Under the pieces are notes generated by a model. The model was not told where the DNA came from, did no database searches, and worked only from the letters and a program-made list of their open reading frames with translations. From an uncultured bacterium (GTDB lineage: Bacteria > Muiribacteriota > UBA6191 > CAZXTJ01): a stretch of 50,263 nucleotides of DNA. Position numbers and translations under genes: made by a program. Shown in pieces: positions 8,935-34,575 of this stretch. Each line of letters starts with the position of its first letter. Position 1 is the stretch's first letter. The stretch covers positions 1-50,263 of the forward strand of contig CAZXTJ010000001.1 in NCBI GenBank assembly GCA_964643655.1. The letters run 5' to 3'.

Positions 8935-10800
8935 GTGGATAAATGGTGGCTAACCGTATCGCTCGGAGTAGATGGCCCCAACTTGTTCTCTCTTCCCTTT
9001 CCTGAGGCTACGCTGTCTATTGGACGAGGGGAAGAATGCGATTTGGTTCTTCCCAATAGACGGTTATCTCGAGTTCACCTCCTTTTGGAAAGAAAAGGCA
9101 AGAAGGCAAGTTTTCGTGACGCTGGCAGTTCAACTGGTCTGATTCTCGAAGGAAAACGAGTTACCGAGGGTGAACTCAAAGTAGGGCAAAAACTATATCT
9201 GTCGAAATATGCCATCTCTTTTGACTGCCAAGCAGCCAAGTCAGAAGGTAATAAAACCCCCGAGACATTCGATGATGGGGACAACAAAGATGGTGGACCT
9301 ACTCTCGATTGGCAAGTCTTTCATTCTTTTTTGGACAAACTGCGAAAACTCTCAGAGCCAAAAGAGTTGTTGAATAGCCTTTTACTTGGATTGGTCGATA
9401 TATTCAAAGCAGAGCGTGGATTTGTCTTGCTGAGAAGTAAAAACAATACATTATTGCCTGTTGCTACACATCGTCTCAGTAATGCAGAGAAGTTCGTTGC
9501 CATTAGTAAGACTGTTTATACACGAGCTCTCGAGAGTGGAAACATTGTCTTTGTTGGCAACACACTTACTGATGAGTGGTATATAGAAGCCTCCTCCTAT
9601 TCTCTGCAAGATGCAGCAAGATCCATTGTTTGTGCGCCCTTATCAGCTGACGGAAAGACATTCGGCACTATCTACATTGATAGTAAAAACATGCTCTCAA
9701 CAGAGCAGTTACCATTATTTGAAACTGTCACTGACTTGGCTGCTGAGATCTTGCGTACTGGGCAAACAAGGAAAAAGCTTCTAGCAGCTGAAGAGCGAGT
9801 GGAAGCCATGCAGTCCTTGATGTATGAGGACGAAAAGTTTGTCCTTGGAAATAGCGAAGCATCACGCCAGCTCAAAGCCACTCTGGACATGACTGCCAAA
9901 GAAGACGTAGCCATCTTGATCACTGGTGATACTGGTACTGGGAAAGAGATGGTAGCTCGTGCAATTCATCAGATGTCAGAAAGACGGGACCAGCCCTTCA
10001 TCCCTGTGAACTGCGCTGCTTTGCCAAGAGAGATTATTGAAGCCGAACTTTTTGGTGCAGAAAAAGGTGCATATACGGGGGCTTTGGCGAGAAGAGTGGG
10101 ACGGTTTGAACTGGCAGCCAATGGAACTCTCTTTTTGGATGAGATTGGCGAGTTGTCACCTGACGTGCAGGTGAAACTCTTACGTGTCTTGCAAGAGAAA
10201 AAAATTACGAGATTGGGTTCCACTAATCCTATACCACTCGACTTCAGGCTACTTTGTGCAACGAATAGAAACCTTGATGAAGCAGTCAGAGAGGGATCTT
10301 TCCGCCAAGATTTTTATTATCGAATTAATGTATTTTCAATTCATCTCAAAGCCTTGCGAGAGAGAAAAGAGGATATTCCTGAACTAGCTGAGCATTTTTT
10401 CAAGCTCTTCTGTCTTCGTCTGGGCAAAAAGCTGAGCAAGATTAGTGACGCTGCAGTTGAAGCGCTGTTGGCTCATGATTGGCCGGGCAATATACGTGAG
10501 TTGCGAAATGCTATTGAAAGGGCAGTTGTTCTAGAGCAGTCCGATGTTCTGCGAGTTGACAATCTCCCTATGACAATTCAACAGCCCACGAATAATCCAA
10601 TTGTCGAATCTCCACAGTGGTTACCAACTGCAATGCCACCGAGATATGACGATGCCAAAGCAGCCTTCGACAGACTATTCATTGAGCAGGGATTGGAACA
10701 GTTTGGTGGCGTGGCAGAGCTGGCCAAGAGTTCAGGTATAACTCGTTCTACTATCTATCGCAAGATGGCCAAATTGGGCATGGATCCTGAGGAATACTAA
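8935..10800 (+). CDS. Sigma-54-dependent transcriptional activator, FHA-GAF-AAA+-HTH, paralogue of 7056-8927
   Basis: 621 aa. GTG start 7 nt after the upstream stop. FHA (IGRGEECDLVL, SRVH, GSSTGLILEG), GAF-like (ERGFVLLR...TIYIDS), GDTGTGKE, GAYTGA, LFLDEIGEL, WPGNIRELRN, and HTH (LAKSSGITRSTIYRKMAKLG). Confidence 0.9.
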   Translation: MDKWWLTVSLGVDGPNLFSLPFPEATLSIGRGEECDLVLPNRRLSRVHLLLERKGKKASFRDAGSSTGLILEGKRVTEGELKVGQKLYLSKYAISFDCQAAKSEGNKTPETFDDGDNKDGGPTLDWQVFHSFLDKLRKLSEPKELLNSLLLGLVDIFKAERGFVLLRSKNNTLLPVATHRLSNAEKFVAISKTVYTRALESGNIVFVGNTLTDEWYIEASSYSLQDAARSIVCAPLSADGKTFGTIYIDSKNMLSTEQLPLFETVTDLAAEILRTGQTRKKLLAAEERVEAMQSLMYEDEKFVLGNSEASRQLKATLDMTAKEDVAILITGDTGTGKEMVARAIHQMSERRDQPFIPVNCAALPREIIEAELFGAEKGAYTGALARRVGRFELAANGTLFLDEIGELSPDVQVKLLRVLQEKKITRLGSTNPIPLDFRLLCATNRNLDEAVREGSFRQDFYYRINVFSIHLKALRERKEDIPELAEHFFKLFCLRLGKKLSKISDAAVEALLAHDWPGNIRELRNAIERAVVLEQSDVLRVDNLPMTIQQPTNNPIVESPQWLPTAMPPRYDDAKAAFDRLFIEQGLEQFGGVAELAKSSGITRSTIYRKMAKLGMDPEEY

Positions 10801-11722: not shown

Positions 11723-12187
11723 TCAGCCACCTCGACGACGGCCTGGATTACAGCCAATCAAGCTTATTGGTCGAGTAGGTGCTGGTCCCCAATTTCGTGG
11801 AGGTACAGAGGTAATTCTCGTTGGAGTGGGAGTTGGTCTCTGTATGACTGGGGGACGAGTCTGCGTTTGAGTGGCCGTCGGTGTTGGTTTGACCGTCGGT
11901 GGTTTGCTGGCTTGATCAACATTGGTAGTGGCAGGTGGTTCAATGACGACCAGTTTGTCACCATCAGCAATGATGATAGTTGGTGGCCTATTTTTGTCAT
12001 CTTGATTTTGCGTCGTCGGTGGCTGGGTGTTTGATGTTTGAATAGTGGGAGGATTGGAACCTCCAGGAGGTAAGGGCGGCAAACCACTCGTCGGAGGATA
12101 TCCTCCTCCTCCACCCCCTCCGCCACCAAAACAACCGGAAAAGAGGGGAGCTAACAAGATTATCAATAATGCTGAGTGCCGCTTCAT
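11723..12187 (-). CDS. Lipoprotein with poly-Gly and Pro/Thr-rich low-complexity body
   Basis: I prefer the internal ATG at 12187, preceded by GAGGAGG, over the track start at 12334. It gives MKRHSALLIILLAPLFSGC with lipobox LFSGC, followed by G9 and PT-rich sequence. The 49-aa upstream extension is Cys-rich and looks non-coding. It also contains the sigma-54 promoter match. Confidence 0.7.
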   Translation of the reverse strand: MKRHSALLIILLAPLFSGCFGGGGGGGGGYPPTSGLPPLPPGGSNPPTIQTSNTQPPTTQNQDDKNRPPTIIIADGDKLVVIEPPATTNVDQASKPPTVKPTPTATQTQTRPPVIQRPTPTPTRITSVPPRNWGPAPTRPISLIGCNPGRRRGG

Positions 12188-12229
12188 GAAAACCTCCTCA
12201 AAGGCCATTTTTCTCATTTGCCGCTTAGC

Positions 12230-12245
12230 AGCACAGAACGTGCCA
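12230..12245 (-). promoter_or_regulatory. Sigma-54 (-24/-12) promoter candidate for the 11723-12187 lipoprotein gene
   Basis: The minus strand reads TGGCACGTTCTGTGCT, against the consensus TGGCACG-N4-TTGCW. GG and GC are separated by exactly 10 nt. The -12 C lies 43 nt upstream of the ATG at 12187, and the GAGGAGG SD lies between them. Confidence 0.65.
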
Positions 12246-12332
12246 GCGTTTTTTGAGGTGGAAACAAGAAGAAAAAGGAGAAAATGACATGAAAATTGGC
12301 ATTTGCATGCGCAGTTTTGTGTCATTTGAGCC

Positions 12333-12361
12333 ATGCCATGAAAAATGGCATCGCCATGCCA
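12333..12361. promoter_or_regulatory. Overlapping palindromes, candidate enhancer (UAS) in a divergent intergenic region
   Basis: The element reads ATGCCAT-gaaaa-ATGGCAT (12333-12351), overlapping TGGCAT-cgcc-ATGCCA (12346-12361). A further TGGCAT half-site lies at 12297-12302. The centre is about 100 nt upstream of the -24 element at 12245. Confidence 0.4.
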
Positions 12362-12552
12362 TGTTTTTGCGCACTGCCTTCAGGCGTTTGTGTAACAAAA
12401 TTTACTCGCCGCCCTGAAGTTGGCTTTATTAGCGGCATTGAGTGTTGAGTAAAAAAATACACAATGTTGGTATGGATATTGTTTGAGACAATTCATAATA
12501 ACAAGGTCAGAAAAACGTGGACTGATGGTGTAGAGTGGATGCGGAGGGTCAA

Positions 12553-12981
12553 ATGAACAGGAACTGGTTAATCGGCGGATGTATTCTTGCACTGATAGCT
12601 GCCCCTAAATTCATGAAGATGGTAGCTCTTATCCTTTTGGTTACCCTGACGGTAGGAAACACCGGTTGCCTCGGCTTCCTCGCAGCCATTCTCGGAGCCA
12701 TTGTCAATGTAGTTGGCGGAATAGTCTCAACACTTGGTCCATTAATCATGGGCGGTATAAAATTAGCGACAGGTATTGTTGGAGCTGTTGCCGGTGCAAG
12801 TGGTAAAGAGACGCAAAATGTCGAGAGCAGAGCTGACACTGACACAGGCCAACAGAACAGAGTCAATTTGCAGAGTGGCGAAAAAGCCAATGTAAATAAT
12901 GAATCTCTTACGATGACTGAAGATGCTCGAACTGACAAGAAAAAGGTAGTTACTCAACTTGAGCCAGTACCTGCACAGTAG
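12553..12981 (+). CDS. Small glycine-zipper membrane protein with a polar C-terminal tail
   Basis: ATG at 12553 follows GGAGGG. Two hydrophobic stretches rich in GxxxG (GGIVSTLGPLIMGGIKLATGIVGAVAGASG). A Cys at LTVGNTGC is a possible weak lipobox. The 3' end overlaps the next gene by 23 nt. Confidence 0.55.
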   Translation: MNRNWLIGGCILALIAAPKFMKMVALILLVTLTVGNTGCLGFLAAILGAIVNVVGGIVSTLGPLIMGGIKLATGIVGAVAGASGKETQNVESRADTDTGQQNRVNLQSGEKANVNNESLTMTEDARTDKKKVVTQLEPVPAQ

Positions 12982-14746
12982 AATTAGTTCATCGGTCCAC
13001 ATCCGAAAAAGACGACACAACCATTCAGGTTTTGGAACACTGTTAATCCTTGTTCTTGCACTCTTGCTCTGTCTAGCCGTAATCGGCATGGGGCAAGGGT
13101 ATTTTTCTTCCTTCGTATCTGACCAAACGCACAAGAATTTGATGGGCGACATTGCCTACGAGTTGGCTGAAAATGCCATAGAAAGTGCCCATTATCTCGT
13201 TGGGAAAGGCGCAAACCATCCTAGTGGTGAGGCCAATCTATACAAACTCTTTCGCGAGAACCTGAGCGATTTCTCTGTCGATTTATCGGTTTCAATCCTG
13301 CCAGGCATAGCAACGGAGCTTGGCAAAAAAGGTTTGGAAAATTTCTCTTTAGTGGATGACAAAGTCCTTTTGGAAGTGCTTTTCCAGCATCCAATGTCTG
13401 TCATCAACCCTACGGAGCATGACCGTTTTGGTACTCTGCGGTTCTCTGCCAAGGGAAAATATGGCCCCAAAAACATCGTTCGTACTGTGAGTAAAACATA
13501 TGATTTCAGGCTCACTTCTATTACGACTCCACGCCCTTTTGACATGAATACGATGTTCATACATGATCCATCACCTTACCTTACCTACTTTGCCTACAAA
13601 GGAGATCCAAATCTCTACATAGATGCAGCCCATACAAAGATTGCCAACTATGAAAAGGCCACGCGTGACTTGAAAAAGTCTTATGAAGACTTTGTCAAAA
13701 AGATAAAAGGAAAACCAAAATCGGGTCCTGTCGTTCGACTTTTTGAGGGTTTGATTGCCGAAATGAATGTGTTGCTCGAACAGGAATGGCCGCCTGACGT
13801 TACAATTTCGCAATCCAATAAAACGAGAGACAAAGAGAACACTGTTCATCATTTTCCTGAACCAACTACCTATGCTCTGTGGACCAATGCAGAGAAGGTA
13901 GATTTTGGTGAGATCAATATTGCACCTCGTTTGAAAGTACGTCACCAAAGATTGGCTGAGATAGAGCCAGAACATCTGCAGGTGAACAATGACATCAAAG
14001 AGTTTTTGGACAGTACGCCGACAAAGTTCGAGCCTCTCGTGCCAATGCAGCGTCAGTGGAATGCTCTCGTTAAAGAGATTGTGTGGCTCTATTACGGTGT
14101 ACTCATCAAGGACTACAAGGTTTTTCAAGATAACTTCTATGAGTTGAATGAACCGCTGTTGAGCAGATTTAAACCTTTCATAAATTCAGTTTCTCTTGAT
14201 GAGCTCGTTAATCGTTGCTCTACCTACTTGGCTGAAGGGGATATTGGTAAGACTGGCGATGGAAGGACTCTCAACGAGAAGTTCAATGAGTTGCTCTCAC
14301 GAAATGAGTCTTTGAGTGGAATTCTGTACATACACAATCCCACAGAAGAGCTCATAATCAACCGCACTTTCAAGGGCAGGCTGGTAATCATCGTCCGTGA
14401 TGATGTGACAATTCAACAAGCATTAGTTGAGGATCAAGAACAGGATTTGCTGACAGTTGCCTCTTTTGGTCGAATGGCAGTAGAAGGCAAAACTCAAGCT
14501 TCATTGATTGCTGGCAGTACTCTTTCAACGGAACCTGAAGCGGACATTGCAGGCAACCTTTTCATTCACAAACTAGACATCGTAGGTGTGAGACCTGAAC
14601 GTTTACTCACAGGAACATTACAAAGAGATGAACGCCTTGTTGGTGGACCAAAACAGATTTCGAGGAAGGTGGAAGGTATCTTCCCCGATTACCAATATTT
14701 CACTGTTGGTCCTGAACCTGTTTTTATGTCTATTGAGAGGCGGTGA
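12959..14746 (+). CDS. Large pseudopilin-like protein lacking Glu+5 (GspK/PilX-like position), cassette A
   Basis: 595 aa. TTG start, with no in-frame ATG before the TM. The N-terminus is basic and then pilin-like hydrophobic (RRHNHSGFGTLLILVLALLLCLAVIG), without Glu at +5. Paralogous to 18149-19759 (TSITTPRPFDMNT vs LTTVPRPFDTYG; DLLTVASFG vs DLLTIVSYAG). Confidence 0.6.
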   Translation: MSQYLHSRISSSVHIRKRRHNHSGFGTLLILVLALLLCLAVIGMGQGYFSSFVSDQTHKNLMGDIAYELAENAIESAHYLVGKGANHPSGEANLYKLFRENLSDFSVDLSVSILPGIATELGKKGLENFSLVDDKVLLEVLFQHPMSVINPTEHDRFGTLRFSAKGKYGPKNIVRTVSKTYDFRLTSITTPRPFDMNTMFIHDPSPYLTYFAYKGDPNLYIDAAHTKIANYEKATRDLKKSYEDFVKKIKGKPKSGPVVRLFEGLIAEMNVLLEQEWPPDVTISQSNKTRDKENTVHHFPEPTTYALWTNAEKVDFGEINIAPRLKVRHQRLAEIEPEHLQVNNDIKEFLDSTPTKFEPLVPMQRQWNALVKEIVWLYYGVLIKDYKVFQDNFYELNEPLLSRFKPFINSVSLDELVNRCSTYLAEGDIGKTGDGRTLNEKFNELLSRNESLSGILYIHNPTEELIINRTFKGRLVIIVRDDVTIQQALVEDQEQDLLTVASFGRMAVEGKTQASLIAGSTLSTEPEADIAGNLFIHKLDIVGVRPERLLTGTLQRDERLVGGPKQISRKVEGIFPDYQYFTVGPEPVFMSIERR

Positions 14747-15288
14747 GTTTGATGAACAGAGGACATTCTTTTGTGGAAGTAATGATAGCTCTGCTCATCA
14801 TTGCCATTGCCCTCATTCCCATTTTGTCCATGTTCATGCATCAAACTCAGGTCGCTCATTTCAATAAATTTCAATTGATAGCGCGTTATCGAGCCAGGCA
14901 GGAAGCTGAAGCTCTCGCTACTCTCGATTATGTTGCCTTGCAGAAGTTGGCTGGTACTGTGGACTATCCCATTTCTCTAAGAGACGATGAAGGCGGATTA
15001 AAGGGCTTGCCTTTGTTGTATCCACCAGCCAAAGCAGAGTTGGCCGCAATGACGCCCGACGGAAAACTCACGCCTGAACTTGCTCATATGGCTGATACGC
15101 TTGGCCTTTTTTCAACGGCTGCCTTTTTTGAAGAGATAGATGCTGGCGGATTGGCTCGGATAGTCATCTACGTGTTATGGAAAATTCCTGGTGAACCACC
15201 TTCTCGTGCTCCACACATGATTCGCTATTTCAAGTTGGTATCACGAAGAGAGAATTCTCTGGACCAGCGACGGAGGATTGAGAGATGA
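14743..15288 (+). CDS. Prepilin-type N-terminal domain protein (minor pseudopilin), cassette A
   Basis: 181 aa. The leader MSLMNRG/HSFVEVMIALLIIAIAL has Gly-1 and Glu+5. 4-nt overlap with both neighbours. Confidence 0.8.
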   Translation: MSLMNRGHSFVEVMIALLIIAIALIPILSMFMHQTQVAHFNKFQLIARYRARQEAEALATLDYVALQKLAGTVDYPISLRDDEGGLKGLPLLYPPAKAELAAMTPDGKLTPELAHMADTLGLFSTAAFFEEIDAGGLARIVIYVLWKIPGEPPSRAPHMIRYFKLVSRRENSLDQRRRIER

Positions 15289-15950
15289 AGAAGGGATTCA
15301 CTCTCGTTGAAGTCATCATCGCCGTACTCGTTGCCAGTTTGGTGATTACGGGTTTGTGGTCCATGTTCATCATGAGTAAAAAGCAGCAACGTATGGCTGA
15401 TGTTACGCAGCAGGGACTAAAAGAATCACTACAGTTGGTTCAGCCTCTGGAACAGGATTTTCGCCGTTTGTACATGGATAAACATAGGCCTGTGAAAACC
15501 TTTGATGGTGGTGTTGAGTTTCACGTCTTTGATGGTGATTATTCTGATCTAACTCGAGGGATTATTCGGACAAAAAGAATAATCTATCGATTAGTAGCTG
15601 AAGATTTTGCCATCTATCGACAAGAGGGTGATACCAATGCTCGAAAGTTGCCAGGTACCTATGAAAAGCTCGATTTCAAGGTTGAACCAGTACACACTTA
15701 CTTAACCATGCCTCCTTATGTCGAAGGAGTGGACGAAGCCACTATGCGTCCCGGTGGTGTTCTCTCTTATATGGTAACCGCCATTCCCGTCGAGCTTACA
15801 GTAGCTGATAGAGAACGGTGGACTCCTCAGGATAGGACCATTCTCAAAGGCGCAGTACCTCTTACTCCACTGAATGGACAAAAACGGTATTTCTTCTGGA
15901 ACTCAAATCCGACGACAAGAGCTATTACTTCTGAGGCTGAGCTTCACTAG
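15285..15950 (+). CDS. Prepilin-type N-terminal domain protein (minor pseudopilin, GspJ/PilW-like size), cassette A
   Basis: 221 aa. The leader MKKG/FTLVEVIIAVLVASLVI has the canonical GFTLxE motif. Confidence 0.85.
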   Translation: MKKGFTLVEVIIAVLVASLVITGLWSMFIMSKKQQRMADVTQQGLKESLQLVQPLEQDFRRLYMDKHRPVKTFDGGVEFHVFDGDYSDLTRGIIRTKRIIYRLVAEDFAIYRQEGDTNARKLPGTYEKLDFKVEPVHTYLTMPPYVEGVDEATMRPGGVLSYMVTAIPVELTVADRERWTPQDRTILKGAVPLTPLNGQKRYFFWNSNPTTRAITSEAELH

Positions 15951-16614
15951 GTTCTTCTGGAGTTCGCAAACCATTCCAAGCCACGTCGAGGGCAATCAGC
16001 AAGACACCGCCATCGATGAAGATGTCTGCCAGATTAAAAATGGTCAGACTCTTGGTTTGCCAGCTCACTTCAAACATATCGATGACATAACCTAAAAAGA
16101 TTCTGTCTGTCATATTGGCCAAAGCCCCAGCTAGAACTAAGGCCAGACAGACTTGAGTCATCTTCTCTTCAGCTGTAACAAAGCGGTAATAGAAGAGCAC
16201 GACAAAGGTAGTCAATATTCCAGAAGTGATGAAGATGAATCTGTGGCCTGGTAACAAACCGAGGATTGCTCCAGGATTCTCAGCATATGTGAGCTGAAAG
16301 ATCTGAGGTAAGAGCTGCAGTTTGGGACCACCTTTGACAAGGCTGACAATGAGCCACTTGATGGCTTGGTCTGCTCCATAAGCAAAAAAGCCTGCAGAGA
16401 GTAGAAACTTAACTGGCAGCGAACATTCTTTCCTGATAAGGAAAGGACTCAATAGCGAAAGTAAAAGGCAGACAAACCACAGTATTCGATAGGCCACCAA
16501 ATGGCCGTCATATGACTGGGGATGGACAAATGAGGTCCAGAGTAGTGTGAGATAGCTAAAGGCAGCTAGAGCCCAGAGGAGCCAAGTAAATATCTTCAGA
16601 TTGGACTTTGTCAT
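15925..16614 (-). CDS. lspA: Lipoprotein signal peptidase (signal peptidase II)
   Basis: Conserved SPase II boxes ENPGAILGLLPG and GYVIDMF...FNLADIFIDGG, with 4 or more TM segments. I prefer the start at ATG 16614, because the track start at 16674 overlaps the divergent neighbour. The 3' end overlaps the convergent pseudopilin gene by 26 nt. Confidence 0.8.
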   Translation of the reverse strand: MTKSNLKIFTWLLWALAAFSYLTLLWTSFVHPQSYDGHLVAYRILWFVCLLLSLLSPFLIRKECSLPVKFLLSAGFFAYGADQAIKWLIVSLVKGGPKLQLLPQIFQLTYAENPGAILGLLPGHRFIFITSGILTTFVVLFYYRFVTAEEKMTQVCLALVLAGALANMTDRIFLGYVIDMFEVSWQTKSLTIFNLADIFIDGGVLLIALDVAWNGLRTPEEPSEAQPQK

Positions 16615-16663
16615 CAATTTTGATGATACCACTGACTGAGAAAAATGTTGAAAGCACTCTTCA

Positions 16664-17140
16664 TTGCAGACCATATTGGCTGAGGAAGGAAATCAATTGT
16701 CTCAACGTCGCTCAATATTAATCACACTGATTGCCCGAATAATCTTTTTCGGCGGTTTGGGGCTTGCTCTGATTGGCGCATTCTATTCCTTTTCTGATGG
16801 CCGCTGGCATCTCATGAGACAGCCGGTATACAAAGAGACCTTTAGAGTAGTCGTCTTTATCTTTGGTCTTGCAACGGCTTTTGTTGGTCACTTATTGGCA
16901 CGAAGGCGAGTCTTTGGTCTCGTATTCTTTCTTTTGGGTTGTGTTGTCATCGTTCTCCAGGACATTGGGACGGCAGCTCTCGGAGGGCCCGAAGCCTTCT
17001 GGTATGGTTATGTACCAGCTGTCGTGGATATAGCTGTTTTAGCCTATGTCTATCATCGTCGAGGTGAGTTCAAAGCACAACATCAACTGGAAAACATTCT
17101 CGTTGATACACTCAAATTGGCTGGCTCAGGCCAAGGATGA
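16664..17140 (+). CDS. Hypothetical 4-TM membrane protein
   Basis: 158-aa ORF with four hydrophobic helices (IIFFGGLGLALIGAFY, VVVFIFGLATAFVGHLL, VFGLVFFLLGCVVIVL, VPAVVDIAVLAYVY). The TTG start is uncertain. No recognisable motif. Confidence 0.5.
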   Translation: MQTILAEEGNQLSQRRSILITLIARIIFFGGLGLALIGAFYSFSDGRWHLMRQPVYKETFRVVVFIFGLATAFVGHLLARRRVFGLVFFLLGCVVIVLQDIGTAALGGPEAFWYGYVPAVVDIAVLAYVYHRRGEFKAQHQLENILVDTLKLAGSGQG

Positions 17141-17318
17141 AGTTGCTCCAAATCATGACAGCTTAGTGACACCTTTTGAAGCACACGCAACTTTCTTTGC
17201 TGATGAACAATAGTTTTCCCAGCTGGCATAAACCTTTCATACTCAATCTGGGGGTACAGCAATAACAAGGGTGCAGAAAGACGCATCTGCAAATCTGTCT
17301 TTCTGAAAGGTTGTACCA

Positions 17319-18149
17319 ATGAAGAGGTCAACAAGAGGTCTTTTGGCAGCTTCCCTCTGCTTTTGTCTTGCCTATTCTGTTTCAGGCTGTGCCAATCCAC
17401 AGATGATGCAACAATTGACCCAGACCATCATTCAGTTGTCTGGTCTTGGTGGTGGTGGCGGAATGGGTAATGGTGGTGGTTTTTTACCACCAATAACCGG
17501 TGGTTCATCAGGACCAGGCCCGGCCAACCCAGGATTTCCTGGTGGACAATCCAAACCACCAACTCAGCCCTGGACCAATCAGCAGCAACCTCCTCTACCT
17601 ACCTCTGCACAGGAAGCCTTAAAGGAGTTGGCAACGAAATACGGAATAAAGCTAACTGGCCCTTATGGCGAGTACGATGTGAAAAATGCTCTCAACTGCG
17701 CTCGCCTCTATAAACCTGAGTTTACTCAACAGTTGACCATGCGCTATTCGGGAAGGAATTTTCACGGTGGTATAGCAGGTACCTGGGAGAATTATGGTGC
17801 TGGTGGATTCATTCAAATCTATGACAGCAAAGGACCATCCACGACTGCCCATGAAATGATGCACCACGTGGCCCTAGCCTCACGTAACAGACAAACGAGT
17901 ATGGCAAAAACAAATCAGATGATAGGTTCTTATCTGCCGGGGAGAAGGCCTCGTCGAGCAGCTCGTAACTTGATACCAACCAACTATGCCATGACAAATG
18001 CAGACGAATGGATTGCGGAAGCGTGTTCACTATATGCCATCAAAGTACGTAATTTGGATTGTCCTTACTGGCGGAATGCTGTCTTTAGTTCCTTCAATCC
18101 TCATCAGCCTTTTCGTGACGATATGAAATACCTCATGTCCGACAGTTGA
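17319..18149 (+). CDS. Lipoprotein with a zincin HExxH motif (ATLF/M34-like metallopeptidase candidate)
   Basis: 276 aa. Lipobox AYSVSGC, then a Gly/Pro-rich linker. TAHEMMHHV is HExxH. The downstream NADEWIAEACSLY resembles the EyFAEaF third-ligand helix of ATLF-like domains. The stop overlaps the start of the next gene. Confidence 0.55.
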   Translation: MKRSTRGLLAASLCFCLAYSVSGCANPQMMQQLTQTIIQLSGLGGGGGMGNGGGFLPPITGGSSGPGPANPGFPGGQSKPPTQPWTNQQQPPLPTSAQEALKELATKYGIKLTGPYGEYDVKNALNCARLYKPEFTQQLTMRYSGRNFHGGIAGTWENYGAGGFIQIYDSKGPSTTAHEMMHHVALASRNRQTSMAKTNQMIGSYLPGRRPRRAARNLIPTNYAMTNADEWIAEACSLYAIKVRNLDCPYWRNAVFSSFNPHQPFRDDMKYLMSDS

Positions 18150-19759
18150 TGAGTATTGGGAGCACAATGAAAATCGTCAAATGGCAAAAAGCAGGCTCTG
18201 GATTAATCGTAATGATGGTCCTTACAGTAGTCTTTTTGCTTGCTACGATAGTCCTCTATCAATCATCACACACCTCTGCAGTTACCCACGATACAGATAC
18301 TCTCCTTAGGGGAGATGTTCTGCAGAACCTTGTCAATTCGGCTGCAGAAGAGGCTGGAGCCAAGCTCGAGTATCTCTTCAATGAACCTAAATCTCCAGTT
18401 TTCTCCATGATTAGACAAGTCGTCTATAGGCCTGATGTTGGTGAATATGACTTCAGTGAATATGTCTCCACACCAGAGCTCACAGCGATTATCGCCTCCT
18501 CTGAATATGCCCAATACAAAGTCGAAGCTCCTGAAGTCAAAGTCGTTCTGCAGCGACAACTGGACAAGACTGAATATGAACGTTTTGGCATTGTCACCCT
18601 TCGTGTCACTGGCACTTCTGGAGGTATATTAGGGAGGCAGGTCAAACGTAGAATCGAGTTTGCCCGAGCCTTCAAAGTAGCTTTGACTACAGTCCCACGA
18701 CCCTTTGACACTTATGGCATCTATTACGCCAATGCAGAAGGAGTCACTGACACGAATTCAGTCAATGACTCTCGCCAGCGACTCATCAGTCTCAATGATG
18801 AGTTGTGGTCCTCATTAAAACGAGCCAAAGTGGAAAATGTGCTCGAAGAGGGGGCAGAAATGAAAGCCCTCGAAGGCCGTTTATTACCTCAAAACCAAGC
18901 ACGTGAGCGAGTCAACGAACTTGCGCAGCTCAAGGGCGGTGCTCTTTTAGGGCTTTATTACCCAGGTGTTTCACTGAAGCTGAATACTCTCGACTTGGCT
19001 GAGTATCTGAGAGCTTTGGTCTCTAAAGCTGAGAGAGCTTTAAGGCGAACAAAAACACTTACTCGGCAAGAAGAGTTTGTACCAGCTGCTTCAATGACAA
19101 ACGAGCTCGTTTACGAAGGTTTGTGGCGCATATGGGCTCATAAAGAAGCCTTTCGTTTAATCAAAACCAGTGACGAAGCTTATAATGCTCTGCAGCATTA
19201 TCATTTCAGCTTTGAAAAAGACTTCTGGCGTAAACGAATTCAATACAAAGTCGAGAAACGAGCCAACGAAGAGAGCTTCTCTGCGGCCTGGCAGAGATAC
19301 AGAAAAGACCATCCTACTCTTCGTGGTGTCATCTCAACAAACAATGATGTACCCCTTTATCTCACAGGTAAAATCACAGGTTCTGCCGTAATCGTCGTTG
19401 GACCTGGTGGAGCCATAATTCACGATTTGAACAAGAGTGGTGGTCCCAAGGATTTGCTGACGATAGTTTCTTATGCAGGACCAATACACATAAAAGGAGA
19501 GTGTCACTGTTCCCTTTTTCTTTGTAAACCCAACGGCGCTGAAAGGCCAGAAGTCAACATTCCCGCTGATGCTACGCTCTTGGGAAATTTAGTTTCCTGG
19601 AGTCCACCACTGGCAACATCTTTGCAAGGGATGATAAAAAGGGATATGAGATATGTCTCTGGATTTAATGGTGATAAAGGTCAAGTCGTCTTGAACAATC
19701 ATTTGTTACATGTGGCCTTTTCTCCAAAGACTATCTATAGGAAGGTGAAGAGGAATTGA
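18149..19759 (+). CDS. Large pseudopilin-like protein lacking Glu+5, cassette B (paralogue of 12959-14746)
   Basis: 536 aa from ATG 18149 (the track gives TTG 18146). N-terminus KWQKAGSGLIVMMVLTVVFLLATIVLY without Glu+5. Shares the TVPRPFD and DLLTIVSY motifs with the cassette A protein. Confidence 0.6.
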   Translation: MSIGSTMKIVKWQKAGSGLIVMMVLTVVFLLATIVLYQSSHTSAVTHDTDTLLRGDVLQNLVNSAAEEAGAKLEYLFNEPKSPVFSMIRQVVYRPDVGEYDFSEYVSTPELTAIIASSEYAQYKVEAPEVKVVLQRQLDKTEYERFGIVTLRVTGTSGGILGRQVKRRIEFARAFKVALTTVPRPFDTYGIYYANAEGVTDTNSVNDSRQRLISLNDELWSSLKRAKVENVLEEGAEMKALEGRLLPQNQARERVNELAQLKGGALLGLYYPGVSLKLNTLDLAEYLRALVSKAERALRRTKTLTRQEEFVPAASMTNELVYEGLWRIWAHKEAFRLIKTSDEAYNALQHYHFSFEKDFWRKRIQYKVEKRANEESFSAAWQRYRKDHPTLRGVISTNNDVPLYLTGKITGSAVIVVGPGGAIIHDLNKSGGPKDLLTIVSYAGPIHIKGECHCSLFLCKPNGAERPEVNIPADATLLGNLVSWSPPLATSLQGMIKRDMRYVSGFNGDKGQVVLNNHLLHVAFSPKTIYRKVKRN

Positions 19760-20175
19760 GGAGTAGAACCTCAGGTATAACAATCGTTGAAGTGCTCATT
19801 GCAGGTGTTATTTTTGCATTGGCTCTTTTTCCCATCTTCTCTCTTCATCAAGGACTCTTCAAACAAAGCTCACAAGCTAGCCATTTGCTCGATGCTCAGT
19901 GCCATTTGTTGGAAATGATGGGGACCATCGAGAGCAGGATGTATGCACAGAGATTTAAGATTGAAGAAGCACGAGCTTTGCAATCAACGAATAAAGTCCA
20001 TTGGGGTCAGCATGAGTTAGAAGTGGAAGAGACAATTTCTCAATACAGATCGAAGTTGACGACAGGAATCTGGCGCATAGATTGTGCCCTTCAGTGGCGG
20101 GAGTCACGTGGAAGCAAATCCATAAACCGTAAACTAGCCCTATCTCGTTTAGTGGCAGAACCAAGCGAAAGGTAG
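19756..20175 (+). CDS. Prepilin-type N-terminal domain protein (minor pseudopilin), cassette B
   Basis: 139 aa. TTG start overlapping the upstream stop. The leader MRSRTSG/ITIVEVLIAGVIFALAL has Glu+5. Confidence 0.75.
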   Translation: MRSRTSGITIVEVLIAGVIFALALFPIFSLHQGLFKQSSQASHLLDAQCHLLEMMGTIESRMYAQRFKIEEARALQSTNKVHWGQHELEVEETISQYRSKLTTGIWRIDCALQWRESRGSKSINRKLALSRLVAEPSER

Positions 20176-20178
20176 ACA

Positions 20179-20775
20179 ATGCGCCGAGGATTCACCTTGC
20201 TGGAAGTAATTGTCGCTTTTTTCCTCCTTTGTTCGCTTGTTGGACTGCTTTATTCGAGTTTTGCTACTGGCTGGCGTAGAAGTGATAAATTGTCTTTTCG
20301 TTTACAGGCTCTACAGGCGGCTTACATTGTGAGGACGGTCTTAGCAGCTGATTTGGCCAGTTATATACCTGGTCCCGTTGGACAAGAAGCTGTTTACGAC
20401 TCTCCCTCACTTGGATTTAAAATGGTGACTCCCGAAGACGGTGCTGGTATTGAAGGCACTTGCCTCGATGAGGATTTAAAACCCATTTCATTTCCCGTTA
20501 CTTACGAGTTCGACAAAACTACTCACAGAATATACAGAAACGGAAAACCCCTAGGCCAAATGCGATTTGCCAAAGCAGCGTTTTTTCACGAACCATATGA
20601 AGAAGGCTGCGAAAAAGGCGAAACTGTTGGTGTCCATCTTGTCATCGTGCCGGAAAGTAAGTTGGAAAATCCTGATAAAGAACAGAATAAAAAATTCGAG
20701 GTCAAGTTTACTTTTCATTGCCCACAAACTACGTTAGCGCGCGTCTATGATGATTGGTCAGTTTACACTTTTTGA
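20179..20775 (+). CDS. Prepilin-type N-terminal domain protein (minor pseudopilin), cassette B
   Basis: 198 aa. Leader MRRG/FTLLEVIVAFFLL. Confidence 0.85.
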   Translation: MRRGFTLLEVIVAFFLLCSLVGLLYSSFATGWRRSDKLSFRLQALQAAYIVRTVLAADLASYIPGPVGQEAVYDSPSLGFKMVTPEDGAGIEGTCLDEDLKPISFPVTYEFDKTTHRIYRNGKPLGQMRFAKAAFFHEPYEEGCEKGETVGVHLVIVPESKLENPDKEQNKKFEVKFTFHCPQTTLARVYDDWSVYTF

Positions 20776-21702
20776 TTAAAGGTAAGAGAGAATAGCTGCA
20801 GTTCCGAGTAGTAATGCGACTTTTGTCCCACAGCCTTGCGTGCTCGTTTTAGATGGTTTGCTCTCTTCGATATCCATCCCTAAACTATTACCCAAAGCTA
20901 TCAAGTCAGTGTTTATATCTTCGACGGAGGCATATCTGCCAGCTGGTGTTTTCATTAGACAGCGGTTGACAATAGGATCCCAAAGTTCTGATATGCCCTC
21001 TCTGAGAGAAGAAATTGGCGGCGGTTGATAAGATACTATTTTTTCGATGACGTCGCCTAAAGCATTGGCACAGAAGGGGTTTTCGCCAGCAAGCAGTTCA
21101 TAGGCGATTATGCCCAAGGCAAAGATATCACTTCGTTCATCAGCGTCGTTGCCGAGCAAGACCTCTGGTGAAATATAGTTTGGCGTTCCCATCGTGATGC
21201 CCGTACCTGTCAGCGGTGCTTGTTCATGTGAGCGAGCAATGCCAAAGTCTGTGATGGCTATAGATGAGTCAAGGCGAATGAGAACATTCTCTGGTTTCAA
21301 GTCACGATGAATAATGCCAAGGGAGTGTATGTAGGTGAAAGCTGAACACAGTTGCCTCAATATGGCGACTACTCTTTTCTCCTCTTGAGCTCCTTTGTTA
21401 TGAACTAGATCTTCCAGACTCTGTTGAGGAAGTAGCTCCATAGCGTAATAACTTCGTTTTTCGTCCACTTTGCCAAAATGGTACATCTTCACAACGTTGG
21501 GATGGGAGAGCTGTGCACACAATTCGTATTCTCTTTGAAATCGTTCTCGGTACTCTTCAGAAATGGAACGTCTACCCTTGAGGATTTTGACTGCAACGTC
21601 ACGATTTTCTTTTTTGTCGTGGGCAAGAAATATGTTGGCCATGCCTCCACTGCCCAGCTCTTCACAGAGCTCAAACCGCTGGTCCAATATCGTTCCGACC
21701 AT
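20776..21702 (-). CDS. Tail-anchored Hanks-type Ser/Thr protein kinase
   Basis: 308 aa. Motifs GSGGMANIF, VAVKIL, HRDLKPEN, TDFG, GTPNYISPE. A single hydrophobic C-terminal segment (VALLLGTAAILSYL). Confidence 0.9.
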   Translation of the reverse strand: MVGTILDQRFELCEELGSGGMANIFLAHDKKENRDVAVKILKGRRSISEEYRERFQREYELCAQLSHPNVVKMYHFGKVDEKRSYYAMELLPQQSLEDLVHNKGAQEEKRVVAILRQLCSAFTYIHSLGIIHRDLKPENVLIRLDSSIAITDFGIARSHEQAPLTGTGITMGTPNYISPEVLLGNDADERSDIFALGIIAYELLAGENPFCANALGDVIEKIVSYQPPPISSLREGISELWDPIVNRCLMKTPAGRYASVEDINTDLIALGNSLGMDIEESKPSKTSTQGCGTKVALLLGTAAILSYL

Positions 21703-30974: not shown

Positions 30975-31170
30975 TAGGCGGTGGGTTGCGTTCGATTAAC
31001 ACAATGAAAATTTTGTGCCATTTTTTACATACACTATTCATCAGGGTTTACACGTCTGGGGAATAACATATGCCACAAAATAGGGCATGGGGTGTTACAC
31101 AACGGTGCAACAGGACATCAGACTCGTAGTAAAGTTGAAGCAACAGTAAAAACTCAAAAATGGAGTGAAC

Positions 31171-32379: not shown

Positions 32380-32874
32380 TCACTGCTTAGATGTTAGCTC
32401 GCCATAAAGTCCAGATAGCCAATTGCTTAACTGAGAGAGTTTACTTGCTTCTTGCACACGTACTCTTCTCTTTCTGGAGGCAACTTTTACACCCTTTTTG
32501 CCTAAATATGAGCGTAAAATAGCCTTTAGCTGGGCATCTGTGGCTGGTTTTTTACACGATGACTTCAATTTAGCCACCATTCGCTCGAGTTGTTCCTCGT
32601 TTATCTGCCTATTTCTGCGAATTTGTCTCGATTTTTGGGGTTTGTGTTGGTTTAGCCCTGCAGGATCGAAGATCCGATCATAACGATGCTCTACGTTCTT
32701 AACAGCTTTACGAAGTTCTCTCTGCAGGGCAGAGACCTTTTTCTTCTCAGCTTTGTCACCTTCTTTGGGTGTAATGCTGTTGATGAGATTGTCTAAAAAG
32801 CCCAAATCAGTTTGTGCAACACATTGTGCAGGCCAAATGGTTAGAAGCAGAGAAAAAGCAAGCAATCGCAACAT
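32380..32874 (-). CDS. Small basic secreted protein of unknown function
   Basis: I prefer ATG 32874, which has GGGGG 6 nt upstream. It gives the signal peptide MLRLLAFSLLLTIWPAQCVA/Q followed by a Lys/Arg-rich 140 aa. The alternative start at 33006 abuts the upstream stop but adds a Cys/Phe-rich 44 aa. That extension spans a hairpin and a sigma-54-like site. Confidence 0.55.
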   Translation of the reverse strand: MLRLLAFSLLLTIWPAQCVAQTDLGFLDNLINSITPKEGDKAEKKKVSALQRELRKAVKNVEHRYDRIFDPAGLNQHKPQKSRQIRRNRQINEEQLERMVAKLKSSCKKPATDAQLKAILRSYLGKKGVKVASRKRRVRVQEASKLSQLSNWLSGLYGELTSKQ

Positions 32875-32909
32875 AAAAAGCCCCCTATTGTTTGAACTGC
32901 TCATAAGCA

Positions 32910-32925
32910 AGCAATAAGGTTGCCG
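32910..32925 (-). promoter_or_regulatory. Sigma-54 (-24/-12) promoter candidate for 32380-32874
   Basis: The minus strand reads CGGCAACCTTATTGCT. GG-N10-GC spacing is exact and the -12 TTGCT is perfect. The -24 reads cGGCAa. The -12 C lies 36 nt upstream of ATG 32874. Confidence 0.45.
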
Positions 32926-32943
32926 TCCCTGAAAAAGCCTAAA

Positions 32944-32973: not shown

Positions 32974-33006
32974 TTTATAGTTTTCCGCAGCAGCGGAATG
33001 CTCCAT

Positions 33007-34554: not shown

Positions 34555-34575
34555 GCCTATTTCCTTTCTGCAAAA

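What the first reader, a model, noticed from the sequence alone, without database searches (positions are those of the whole stretch)
12959..20775. Duplicated three-gene cassette: a giant pseudopilin lacking Glu+5 plus two minor pseudopilins
Two diverged copies of the same cassette lie on the + strand, cassette B starting 3.4 kb after cassette A ends. Cassette A is 12959-14746 / 14743-15288 / 15285-15950. Cassette B is 18149-19759 / 19756-20175 / 20179-20775.

- Each cassette opens with a 536-595-aa protein. Its N-terminus is pilin-like but lacks Glu+5 (SGFGTLLILVLALLL in A; GSGLIVMMVLTVVFLL in B).
- Two small proteins follow, joined by overlapping or near-abutting stop/start junctions (4-nt overlaps, except a 3-nt gap before 20179). 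They have canonical prepilin leaders and Glu+5 (G/HSFVEV and G/FTLVEV in A; G/ITIVEV and G/FTLLEV in B).
- The large proteins are clearly paralogous (TSITTPRPFDMNT vs LTTVPRPFDTYG; DLLTVASFG vs DLLTIVSYAG).
- I cannot match their 500-aa globular parts to GspK, PilX or PilY1.

One subunit without Glu+5 plus subunits with it is the signature of a filament tip complex (GspK-I-J). Several things are atypical: the K-first gene order, the doubled size, and the duplication. There is also no major pilin, secretin, platform protein or prepilin peptidase nearby. Each cassette is preceded by a different exported partner, a glycine-zipper protein for A and an HExxH lipoprotein for B.
Basis: partly seen in the sequence, partly recalled or inferred. 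Interest (0 to 1): 0.7.

Follow-up and report, generated by a model that had tools for sequence, protein, structure and literature searches.

The report
Paralogous pilus-tip minor-pilin gene cassettes
The window carries two old paralogous gene sets that each most likely build the cap of a pilus-like filament: a large cap subunit, two small pilin-like subunits and a membrane or lipoprotein partner, forming a widespread, unnamed branch of a recently recognised kind of pilus tip.

Summary
In detail: all six ORFs, their leaders, the stop/start couplings and the paralogy of the large proteins are as described.

The unit is really four genes, because each upstream "partner" is conserved with its cassette subtype in other genomes. 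A and B are ancient paralogues (about 21-25% identity), each with its own orthologues, not a recent duplication.

The large proteins belong to an unnamed family of at least 421 clusters (50% identity) with no Pfam, NCBIfam or PDB sequence match. It occurs in Candidatus Wallbacteria and other uncultured lineages (37-74% GC), often with several cassettes per genome.

None of 62 scorable members has an acidic residue at +5. A confident AlphaFold model (pLDDT 94) shows a 61-residue N-terminal helix, a β-sheet, a helical bundle, a short β-solenoid and terminal strands.

This is the architecture of Thermus ComZ and cyanobacterial PilX/HpsA tip pilins.

Best reading: alternative tip or priming modules of a type IV filament whose machinery lies elsewhere. 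Homology to ComZ, GspK or PilX is not demonstrable by sequence or Foldseek.

Verdict: new variant of a known kind, moderate interest.

The parts
12535..12981 (+). Partner of cassette A: a small Gly-zipper membrane or lipoprotein-like protein with a conserved N-x-G-C lipobox-like Cys. The start is probably at 12553 (MNRNW...).
   Evidence: ORF. It is conserved directly upstream of type-A large genes in L003, L006, L007 and L011, with G44, C45 and several Gly invariant. Similar small lipobox proteins lie upstream in L015 and L016. Its end overlaps the start of large A by 23 nt.
12959..14746 (+). Large subunit A (595 aa): a PilX/ComZ/GspK-like putative tip pilin. It has a basic leader, G-F-G and a hydrophobic helix without Glu+5. 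A pilin-like sheet, a helical bundle (~205-392), a β-solenoid (~454-538) and terminal strands follow.
   Evidence: family of 421 representatives; leader statistics; AF2 pLDDT 94.1, pTM 0.87; weak hits to minor pilin PilA, ComZ and ice-binding β-helices. No Pfam or NCBIfam match.
14743..15288 (+). PilV/GspI-like minor (pseudo)pilin A (181 aa), leader RG/HSFVEV with Glu+5.
   Evidence: N_methyl 22.3 bits against a 21.2 cutoff. Weak N-terminal hits to PilV and GspI. Conserved in the same position in other loci. 4-nt overlap with both neighbours.
15285..15950 (+). PilW/GspJ-like minor (pseudo)pilin A (221 aa), leader KKG/FTLVEV with Glu+5.
   Evidence: N_methyl 27.0 bits. Weak hits to ComGF, HpsC and GspJ. 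The family profile A4 matches E. coli GspJ best among GspG-K: 94% probability over 69 columns. Conserved core '..V.Y.FD....IYRN'.
17319..18149 (+). Partner of cassette B: an HExxH lipoprotein (276 aa) with lipobox VSGC, a Gly/Pro-rich linker, and the motifs HEMMHH and SFNPHQ.
   Evidence: ORF. It is conserved directly upstream of type-B large genes in the Wallbacteria MAG locus L009 and in L010: 27-32% identity, with invariant lipobox Cys, HE..H and FNP. No Pfam or PDB relative. Stop/start overlap with large B.
18149..19759 (+). Large subunit B (536 aa from ATG 18149; TTG 18146 also possible). It is a paralogue of large A from a distinct subfamily.
   Evidence: Its closest full-length relatives are P0033, P0041, P0049 and P0039 at 33-36% identity, against about 21-25% to A. 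Leader AGSGLIVMMVL without Glu+5.
19756..20175 (+). PilV/GspI-like minor (pseudo)pilin B (139 aa, TTG start), leader SG/ITIVEV with Glu+5.
   Evidence: N_methyl only 13.1 bits. Weak GspI and XpsI hits. 35% identity over 130 aa with the L010 counterpart, E = 9e-27, so it is a real gene although the gene finder did not call it in L004.
20179..20775 (+). PilW/GspJ-like minor (pseudo)pilin B (198 aa), leader RRG/FTLLEV with Glu+5.
   Evidence: N_methyl 23.4 bits. 38% identity over 189 aa with the L010 counterpart, E = 3e-41. Member of alignment A4.

Best explanation
Each cassette encodes a self-contained tip or priming module of a type IV filament (a type IV pilus or a T2SS-like pseudopilus). The motor, platform, secretin, major pilin and prepilin peptidase would be encoded elsewhere in the genome.

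Proposed mechanism:
1. The large protein is the capping subunit. It inserts in the inner membrane by its pilin-like N-terminal helix.
2. It lacks Glu5, so it does not need a subunit above it to neutralise that charge. It therefore sits at the very top, as GspK and PilX do.
3. Its helical bundle and short β-solenoid project from the tip, as in Thermus ComZ and cyanobacterial PilX/HpsA.
4. The PilV/GspI-like and PilW/GspJ-like proteins, both with Glu5, dock beneath it through their N-terminal helices. Together the three form the nucleus on which the major pilin polymerises.
5. The two cassettes here, and probably a third on another contig of the same organism, provide alternative tips with different surface modules.
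6. The co-transcribed envelope partner is either a tip-associated cargo or an assembly factor. It is a Gly-zipper protein in type-A cassettes and an HExxH lipoprotein in type-B cassettes.

Shown: gene structure, leaders, conservation of the four-gene unit, family-wide absence of an acidic +5 residue, and the predicted domain architecture.

Inferred: cleavage by a prepilin peptidase, formation of the trimer, location at the tip, the role of the partner, and the type of filament.
For: - ORFs and translational coupling.
- Prepilin N_methyl motif in the small proteins.
- No other pilin gene in the window.
- The large-protein family has 421 representatives, nearly all 500-650 aa.
- Leaders are basic, then G(x)G, then hydrophobic: 62 of 74 have the Gly and 0 of 62 have Glu or Asp at +5.
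- The large + V-like + W-like unit is conserved in L001, L003, L007, L009 (twice), L010, L015 and L016. L011 has the pair 5 kb away, and L008 has a split V-like gene.
- The upstream partners are conserved with the cassette subtype.
- The W/J-like profile fits GspJ best among the five E. coli pseudopilins (94%). The large-family profile is weakly closest to GspK (11% against 0.5-3.7%).
- The AF2 model (pLDDT 94.1) has H24-84, a five-strand sheet at 105-203, a helical insert, a β-solenoid at 454-538, and terminal strands at 579-594.
- The C-terminal profile hits only β-helix proteins (pectate lyase, bactofilin), and 5 of 74 members hit Pfam Bactofilin.
- Among non-significant Foldseek hits are the minor pilin PilA of S. 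sanguinis (TM 0.43 on the target), ComZ and ice-binding proteins. These are the three structural classes reported for ComZ domains (PMC6561018).
- PilX and GspK lack Glu5 and cap the complex (PMC7541494).
- Cyanobacterial PilX proteins carry solenoids, are encoded as PilX-PilV-PilW-FimT, and occur in multiple sets per genome.
Against: - No Pfam, NCBIfam or PDB sequence match links the large protein to GspK, PilX, ComZ or any pilin.
- Foldseek finds nothing at E <= 1e-3, and hhalign to GspK reaches only 11%.
- The globular parts of the small proteins match no solved minor pilin. The V/I-like assignment is not specific.
- No FimT/GspH-like fourth minor pilin, major pilin or machinery gene was found within about 10 kb in any of the sampled loci.
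- Whether these genomes have a type IV filament machine at all was not established.
- I could not inspect model coordinates, so I cannot confirm that the terminal strands rejoin the N-terminal sheet.
Confidence: 0.62

Rival explanations
1. The cassettes are pseudopilus tips of a secretion device (T2SS-like), not of an adhesive or motile pilus. The co-transcribed lipoprotein is the dedicated cargo that the tip pushes to the cell surface. In type B this would be an HExxH metallopeptidase-like protein. E. coli's lipoprotein metalloprotease SslE, exported by its T2SS, is a comparable case (from my own knowledge, not checked here).
For: - The exported partner is tightly coupled to each cassette (stop/start overlap at 18146-18149) and conserved with it across phyla-level distances.
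- GspK is proposed to contact T2SS substrates (PMC7541494).
- The set has three members (K/I/J-like), as in the crystallised T2SS tip.
- The W/J-like profile fits GspJ best.
Against: - No gspC, D, L, M or G genes are anywhere in the 50-kb window or in the sampled loci.
- The large subunit's architecture (β-solenoid at the C-terminal end of the pilin fold) resembles the T4P tip pilins ComZ and PilX rather than GspK, whose insert is purely α-helical.
- The type-A partner is a tiny Gly-zipper protein that does not look like a secreted enzyme.
Confidence: 0.2
2. The large protein is not a filament subunit. It would be a bitopic inner-membrane protein with an uncleaved signal anchor, whose periplasmic helical bundle and β-helix serve another role, for example a scaffold or sensor that works with two pseudopilin-like proteins and a lipoprotein. 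Its resemblance to Glu5-less tip pilins would be convergent.
For: - There is no significant sequence or fold match to any pilin.
- A basic, then Gly, then hydrophobic N-terminus is also what a generic signal anchor looks like.
- Ser/Thr kinases and FHA/σ54 regulators are recurrent neighbours.
- Pilin-like proteins with regulatory roles are known in cyanobacteria.
Against: - Gly is strongly conserved at the start of the hydrophobic segment (62 of 74, mostly G-x-G).
- The predicted N-terminal helix is 61 residues long and packs on an antiparallel sheet.
- Operonic coupling to two genuine prepilins is invariable.
- The domain order parallels ComZ and PilX.
Confidence: 0.13
3. The cassettes are decaying remnants of pilus operons with no present function.
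For: - They are isolated from any machinery genes.
- The V-like gene is split in L008.
- B's V-like gene has a TTG start and a weak N_methyl score.
Against: - All eight ORFs are intact and translationally coupled.
- The family is conserved full-length across 37-74% GC genomes.
- B's small genes are conserved at 35-38% identity over their full length in L010.
- The AF2 model built from the family alignment is highly confident.
Confidence: 0.03

Closest known systems
ComZ-PilA2 of Thermus thermophilus (competence pilus tip; PDB 6QVI; PMC6561018)
   Same: - The large (~550 aa) pilin-like protein is not recognised by pilin predictors.
- It has a hydrophobic N-terminal helix and a GspK-like pilin domain interrupted near its C-terminal end by a β-solenoid.
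- It is encoded next to small minor pilins that bind it, and is argued to fit only at the filament tip.
- ComZ and ice-binding β-helices appear among the (non-significant) Foldseek hits of the model.
   Different: - There is no detectable sequence similarity: ComZ is absent from the PDB profile searches.
- The solenoid here is short (~90 aa against ~380 aa) and is preceded by a ~190-aa helical bundle that ComZ lacks.
- A conserved upstream lipoprotein or Gly-zipper partner is present.
- No DNA-binding evidence exists, and there are several paralogous cassettes.
Cyanobacterial core minor pilin sets PilX-PilV-PilW-FimT, including PilX_EPS/HpsA with HpsB-D (bioRxiv 10.64898/2026.02.12.705559)
   Same: - The gene order puts the large subunit first (X-V-W).
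- PilX has a bulky β-solenoid inserted before the last strand.
- There are no PilY1 homologues, and the solenoid is proposed as the tip plug.
- One to many sets occur per genome, giving functionally distinct filaments.
- There is a weak NCBIfam hit of the W/J-like protein to HpsC (E = 2e-4, N-terminal only).
   Different: - No FimT/GspH-like fourth pilin is present in any sampled cassette.
- The large subunit has an extra helical bundle.
- No sequence-level homology has been shown.
- The lineages differ (Candidatus Wallbacteria and unclassified MAGs).
- Conserved lipobox-protein partners are not described for the cyanobacterial sets.
GspK-GspI-GspJ pseudopilus tip of the type II secretion system (ETEC, PDB 3CI0; Korotkov & Hol 2008, as cited in PMC7541494)
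   Same: - It is a three-protein set in which the largest subunit lacks Glu5 and carries an inserted domain.
- The two smaller subunits keep Glu5.
- The sizes of the small proteins (139-181 and 198-221 aa) are similar to GspI and GspJ (125 and 195 aa in E. coli K-12).
- The W/J-like profile is closest to GspJ.
   Different: - Gene order is K-I-J instead of I-J-K, and the genes are not embedded in a gsp operon.
- The large subunit is nearly twice the size of GspK, with a helical bundle plus a β-solenoid.
- The T2SSK Pfam model and the GspI, GspJ and GspK NCBIfam models are not matched at their cutoffs.
Myxococcus xanthus and Pseudomonas aeruginosa FimU-PilV-PilW-PilX + PilY1 priming complexes (PMC7541494)
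   Same: - Glu5-less PilX sits at the top of a minor pilin complex that primes assembly.
- M. xanthus has three alternative clusters in one genome.
- A non-pilin partner (PilY1) is encoded in each cluster and displayed at the tip.
   Different: - There is no PilY1 domain protein here. The partner is a small Gly-zipper protein or an HExxH lipoprotein, and it is encoded upstream.
- There are three pilins rather than four.
- The X-like subunit is 3-4 times larger than proteobacterial PilX.

Membership tests
Type IV pilin-like proteins (class III signal peptide; Pfam N_methyl PF07963 / TIGR02532) | Short basic leader ending in Gly, then a hydrophobic +1 residue, Glu at +5 and a ~20-residue hydrophobic helix. 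The Pfam model should be matched above its gathering score. | tested here: met
   The four small proteins have G/HSFVEV, G/FTLVEV, G/ITIVEV and G/FTLLEV. N_methyl scores are 22.3, 27.0 and 23.4 bits against a 21.2 cutoff for three of them. The 139-aa protein scores only 13.1 bits, but its leader is canonical and it is conserved.
Type IV pilin-like proteins (class III signal peptide) | Cleavage and N-methylation by a PilD/GspO-type prepilin peptidase | not testable with these tools
   No prepilin peptidase gene is in the window. The rest of the genome is not available.
GspK (Pfam T2SSK PF03934) / PilX (PilX_N) | Sequence match to the family models | tested here: not met
   No Pfam or NCBIfam family matches either large protein at E <= 1. 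None of the 74 family members hits T2SSK or PilX_N at E <= 0.01. hhalign of the family profile against E. coli GspK gives 11% probability over 49 N-terminal columns.
GspK / PilX | Pilin-like hydrophobic N-terminus that lacks the conserved Glu5 | tested here: met
   62 of 74 members have Gly at the start of the hydrophobic segment (48 as G-x-G). None of those 62 has Glu or Asp at +5, and 51 of 62 have L, V, I or F there. The reference statement that PilX and GspK lack Glu5 is in PMC7541494.
GspK / PilX / ComZ-type tip pilins | Pilin fold (long α1 helix packed on an antiparallel β-sheet) interrupted by an extra domain | tested here: inconclusive
   The AF2 model (pLDDT 94.1, pTM 0.87) has H24-84, strands at 105-203, inserts at 205-575 and final strands at 579-594. 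Foldseek against the PDB finds nothing at E <= 1e-3. The best pilin hits are PilA 7o5y_D (E = 0.98, target TM 0.43) and ComZ 6qvi_B (E = 1.7). Model coordinates could not be inspected.
ComZ / cyanobacterial PilX (β-solenoid tip pilins) | [quoted passage not shown] | tested here: inconclusive
   - The model has a run of short strands at 454-538, followed by terminal strands.
- The C-terminal profile gives only weak hits to pectate lyase (E = 0.04) and bactofilin (E = 0.2).
- 5 of 74 members hit Pfam Bactofilin.
- Ice-binding proteins appear among the non-significant Foldseek hits.
- The solenoid is much shorter than in ComZ, and a helical bundle precedes it.
ComZ / cyanobacterial PilX core sets | The large subunit is encoded with PilV-like and PilW-like minor pilins (X-V-W order), often in several sets per genome | tested here: met
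   The order large, V/I-like, W/J-like is found in both window cassettes and in L001, L003, L007, L009, L010, L015 and L016. At least two cassettes per genome occur in the window, the Wallbacteria MAG (L009) and the UBA6191 MAG (L001 + L016). No FimT-like gene was found.
GspJ / PilW | Match to TIGR01711 (gspJ) or the PilW models at their cutoffs, and the GspJ fold | tested here: not met
   gspJ scores 18.6 bits against a 64.85 cutoff, over the N-terminal 63 residues only. hhalign of profile A4 to E. coli GspJ gives 94% over α1 (69 columns), better than to GspG, H, I or K. No solved GspJ or PilW structure is hit by the globular part. This is a resemblance, not membership.
GspI / PilV | Match to TIGR01707 (gspI) or TIGR02523 (pilV) at their cutoffs | tested here: not met
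   pilV scores 20.2 bits against 52.2, and gspI scores 13.8-15.9 bits against 44.35. hhalign is not specific: 69-83% to GspG, H, I and J alike, over the N-terminus only.
PilY1 / PilC tip adhesins | C-terminal PilY1 β-propeller domain, type I signal peptide | tested here: not met
   No Pfam hit of that kind is found in any cassette protein or neighbour.
Tad pseudopilins (TadE/TadF) | TadE-like N-terminal domain (Pfam TadE) | tested here: not met
   No TadE hit at E <= 1 for any of the six proteins.

The most novel reading that the evidence does not exclude
The invariant unit is not three pilins but four components: a lipobox protein plus X, V and W-like subunits. On this reading, the family defines a distinct class of type IV filament tip that recruits and displays a dedicated lipoprotein at the end of the fibre. 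Type B would display an HExxH metallopeptidase, and type A a Gly-zipper membrane-active peptide. The helical bundle of the large subunit would act as the docking site. In kinase-rich, possibly predatory or socially complex uncultured bacteria (Wallbacteria and relatives), one machine would then serve as a modular, contact-dependent 'enzyme- or toxin-tipped pilus' with interchangeable warheads.
Probability: 0.12. Interest if true: 0.8.

Novelty: new variant of a known kind. Interest (0 to 1): 0.45.

Why it matters
- It puts a name and a testable hypothesis on a sizeable family that databases call 'hypothetical protein'. The family has at least 421 clusters at 50% identity and no Pfam model.
- It extends the ComZ/PilX 'solenoid-capped tip pilin' concept beyond Thermus and cyanobacteria to candidate phyla.
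- It shows that these organisms keep several interchangeable tip modules. This is the same logic as the alternative minor-pilin sets of Myxococcus and cyanobacteria.
- The conserved lipoprotein or HExxH partner is a new element. If it rides on the tip, it would be a new way to deliver an enzyme by a pilus.
- For annotation, the family alignment could seed new profile models for the large subunit and its two divergent pseudopilin partners.

Tried and rejected
- **Word-indexed homologue searches.** A single sequence, a 5-sequence profile and a 74-sequence profile found only 4-5 proteins because of the candidate cap. The exhaustive HMMER search was needed.
- **First AF2 model.** Built from 5 sequences, it had pLDDT 60, and its Foldseek search was uninformative.
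- **Foldseek with the confident model.** No hit at E <= 1e-3.
- **PDB profile searches.** The full-length profile gave coiled-coil noise from the helical insert. The separate N-domain profile found nothing. The C-domain profile found only weak β-helix hits.
- **Small-protein profiles.** They hit only the N-terminal helix of pilins.
- **Genome scans of GTDB representatives.** The large protein found nothing and the alignment was too divergent to use. The GspE-like ATPase found only 31-32% relatives in unrelated taxa. The window's taxon therefore remains unknown.
- **σ54 promoter hypothesis.** It was prompted by recurrent σ54 activators next to cassettes. No convincing -24/-12 element lies upstream of either cassette. 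The best candidate, at 17224-17238, has a degenerate -12 box.
- **Rejected identities.** PilY1, TadE/F, and true membership of GspK, GspI or GspJ (see the membership tests).
- **Rejected idea of a recent tandem duplication**.
- **Literature searches.** Searches for UBA6191 and for Wallbacteria pilins found nothing relevant.

Full report
**1. Observation**

The six ORFs are present on the + strand as described.
- Cassette A: 12959-14746 (595 aa, TTG), 14743-15288 (181 aa), 15285-15950 (221 aa).
- Cassette B: 18146/18149-19759 (537/536 aa), 19756-20175 (139 aa), 20179-20775 (198 aa).

Neighbouring genes overlap by 4 nt, except for a 3-nt gap before 20179. The four small proteins start with canonical prepilin leaders and carry Glu at +5: RG/HSFVEV, KKG/FTLVEV, SG/ITIVEV and RRG/FTLLEV.

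Pfam N_methyl passes its gathering score for three of them. The 139-aa protein scores only 13.1 bits. It is still a real gene, with 35% identity over 130 aa to its counterpart in another contig.

The large proteins have a basic stretch, G-x-G and a hydrophobic segment without Glu+5. They are paralogous: 25% identity over ~200 aa with E = 6e-10, and they align end to end in family alignments.

A scan of all ORFs found no further prepilin leader in the window. Pfam annotation of the remaining ORFs found no secretin, platform protein, prepilin peptidase or major pilin. The only related gene is a GspE-type ATPase at 33007-34554 (minus strand), inside an ECF-sigma operon about 12 kb away.

**2. The family**

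Neither large protein matches any Pfam or NCBIfam model at E <= 1.

The word-indexed search of 5.8 billion proteins returned only four relatives. An exhaustive HMMER search with a five-sequence profile against 1.84 billion cluster representatives gave far more:
- 421 representatives at E <= 1e-3;
- 127 at E <= 1e-30;
- almost all 500-650 aa and matched end to end.

Where public sources name members at all, they are 'hypothetical protein', for example MBI4869917.1 from a Candidatus Wallbacteria MAG. Loci carrying the family range from 37% to 74% GC, so the family is old and broadly spread among uncultured bacteria. The window's own taxon could not be determined.

**3. The conserved unit**

I sampled the genomic context of distant members. 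The large gene is followed by a ~140-180-aa prepilin (PilV/GspI-like) and a ~190-230-aa prepilin (PilW/GspJ-like) in L001, L003, L007, L009, L010, L015 and L016. In L011 the pair lies 5 kb away, and in L008 the V-like gene is split.

- The Gly-zipper protein with a conserved lipobox-like Cys precedes type-A large genes in L003, L006, L007 and L011. Similar small lipobox proteins precede the large genes in L015 and L016.
- The HExxH lipoprotein precedes type-B large genes in the Wallbacteria locus L009 and in L010. Identity is 27-32%, with the lipobox Cys, HE..H and FNP invariant. It has no Pfam or PDB relative.

A and B are not a recent duplication. A has full-length relatives at 35-53% identity and B has its own at 29-36%, while A against B is about 21-25%.

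Several cassettes per genome are common:
- two in tandem in the Wallbacteria MAG;
- two in the UBA6191 MAG (L001 and L016);
- two in sample ERZ21869580 (L007 and L011).

L010 very probably belongs to the window's organism. It comes from the same sample, with coverage 4.98 against 5.60, GC 0.466 against 0.460, and tetranucleotide r = 0.957. That would give the organism three cassettes.

No sampled locus has filament machinery within about 10 kb. Ser/Thr kinases and FHA/σ54 activators are frequent neighbours. I found no convincing σ54 promoter.

**4. What the large protein looks like**

Across 74 members, 62 have a Gly at the start of the hydrophobic segment, 48 of them as G-x-G. None of the 62 has Glu or Asp at +5, and 51 have L, V, I or F there. 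That is the GspK/PilX-type leader (PMC7541494).

With the 74-sequence alignment, AlphaFold2 gives a confident model (mean pLDDT 94.1, pTM 0.87). Its elements, in order:
- a 61-residue N-terminal helix (24-84);
- an antiparallel sheet (strands between 105 and 203, ending at the invariant PRPFD motif);
- a helical bundle (four long helices between 217 and 392);
- a β-solenoid-like run of short strands (454-538);
- two terminal strands (579-594).

The C-terminal profile hits only β-helix proteins, and weakly: pectate lyase at E = 0.04 and bactofilin at E = 0.2. Five of 74 members hit Pfam Bactofilin.

Foldseek of the whole model against the PDB gives nothing at E <= 1e-3. The non-significant list contains the S. 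sanguinis minor pilin PilA (target TM 0.43 over 127 columns), Thermus ComZ and several ice-binding β-helix proteins. The ComZ paper reports the same structural classes as neighbours of ComZ's two domains. This is suggestive only.

**5. The small proteins**

Their profiles match solved structures only through the N-terminal pilin helix.

In an all-against-all hhalign with E. coli K-12 GspG-K:
- the larger small protein is closest to GspJ (94% probability over 69 columns, against 82% or less for the others);
- the smaller one is not specific;
- the large family is weakly closest to GspK (11% against 0.5-3.7%).

NCBIfam hits (PilV, GspI, GspJ, ComGE/F, HpsC) are all N-terminal and far below their cutoffs. 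The proteins therefore resemble members of those families but do not belong to them.

**6. Interpretation**

The most economical reading is that each cassette is a tip or priming module of a type IV filament.
- The large subunit lacks Glu5 and caps the filament.
- A V/I-like and a W/J-like subunit with Glu5 sit beneath it.
- The machinery and the major pilin are encoded elsewhere.

- Thermus ComZ is a GspK-like pilin domain with a β-solenoid inserted before the last strand. It binds the adjacent minor pilin and can only sit at the tip (PMC6561018).
- All cyanobacterial PilX homologues, including HpsA, carry such a solenoid.
- They are encoded in PilX-PilV-PilW-FimT loci and occur in one to many sets per genome, priming different filaments.
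- The solenoid is proposed to replace PilY1 as the tip plug (bioRxiv 10.64898/2026.02.12.705559).
- M. xanthus likewise has three alternative minor-pilin/PilY1 clusters (PMC7541494).

What differs here:
- no detectable sequence homology to those proteins;
- a ~190-aa helical bundle ahead of a much shorter solenoid;
- no FimT/GspH-like fourth pilin;
- a conserved upstream lipobox partner that comes in two types, one of them an HExxH lipoprotein.

Three things remain open. I could not tell whether the filament is a pilus or a secretion pseudopilus. I could not tell whether the partner is cargo, tip component or assembly factor. Nor could I establish that the large protein is really cleaved and incorporated into a filament.

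**7. Verdict**

Its claims of atypicality and duplication need correction. The finding is best filed as a new, divergent variant of the ComZ/PilX-type core minor-pilin set. It is widespread but unannotated, and of moderate interest. The conserved lipoprotein partner is the most original element.

Noticed in passing
window 32380-35606 (minus strand): The operon encodes an ECF sigma factor (35022-35606), a zf-HC2 anti-sigma factor with an HTH (34576-35022), a 515-aa GspE/PilB-type ATPase (33007-34554) and a 208-aa secreted coiled-coil protein (32380-33006). The first ~100 residues of the ATPase match the cytoplasmic domain of the platform protein GspF (T2SSF, 46 bits). An F-domain::E-ATPase fusion under ECF control is unusual. 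No close relative was found among GTDB representatives.
   Followed up: partly
window 15925-16674 (minus strand); L003 5991-6620: The lipoprotein signal peptidase LspA sits immediately downstream of cassette A, convergent with it. It is 249 aa, with a ~90-aa N-terminal extension containing extra hydrophobic segments. The same position is kept in L003 (53% identity level). It is tempting to link it to the lipobox partners of the cassettes, but the adjacency is not conserved in more distant loci.
   Followed up: partly
window 7056-8927 and 8935-10800 (+): Two tandem paralogous FHA-GAF-σ54 activator (AAA+)-HTH_8 regulators lie upstream of cassette A, and the same pair occurs in L006. σ54 activators also neighbour cassettes in L009, L010, L011 and L016. 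No convincing -24/-12 promoter was found upstream of either window cassette.
   Followed up: partly
window 47820-49166 (minus strand): A glgC-like nucleotidyltransferase is split into two adjacent ORFs. The N-terminal NTP_transferase part is at 48555-49166 (203 aa) and the C-terminal left-handed β-helix part is at 47820-48536 (238 aa). This could be a frameshift, a pseudogene or an assembly error.
   Followed up: no
window ~13529-13543 (large A residues 191-195, PRPFD): PRPFD is the only invariant motif in the five-sequence alignment of close relatives (A1), and the Pro at residue 193 stays >=90% conserved across the 74-member alignment (A2). In the model it lies at the junction between the pilin-like sheet and the helical insert. 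Its role is unexplained; it could be an interface or a hinge.
   Followed up: no
L003 6758-7318: This 186-aa protein has a core resembling the major pseudopilin GspG (L..AI..Y..D.G ... GYL..IP.DP) but a non-canonical N-terminus. It lies between lspA and a conserved 148-aa membrane protein and is absent from the corresponding place in the window.
   Followed up: no
L009 16049-21662 (Candidatus Wallbacteria MAG JACQZN010000135.1): The tandem cassettes lie next to a 1652-aa RHS/YD-repeat toxin-like protein and a >2000-aa dockerin/PKD/NHL surface protein. This hints at a contact-dependent or surface-interaction gene neighbourhood.
   Followed up: no
window 61-2160 (-), 4637-6979 (+), 20776-21702 (-), 25078-28590 (+), 28587-30974 (+), 31165-32379 (+): The window has a very high density of eukaryote-like signalling genes:
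- four Ser/Thr kinases, one fused to ankyrin repeats and one to an AAA_16/TPR STAND-like module;
- an FHA-GAF-PAS hybrid histidine kinase;
- a cNMP-binding ParA/MinD-like ATPase.

This is typical of bacteria with complex lifestyles. A kinase gene abuts the end of cassette B.
   Followed up: no
window 11723-12334 (minus strand): This ORF encodes a 203-aa Pro/Thr-rich protein with a lipobox (LFSGC) followed by a poly-Gly run. It is divergent from cassette A's partner gene and is conserved in L004-L006 as a 154/155-aa call. It is another exported low-complexity lipoprotein next to the cassette.
   Followed up: no
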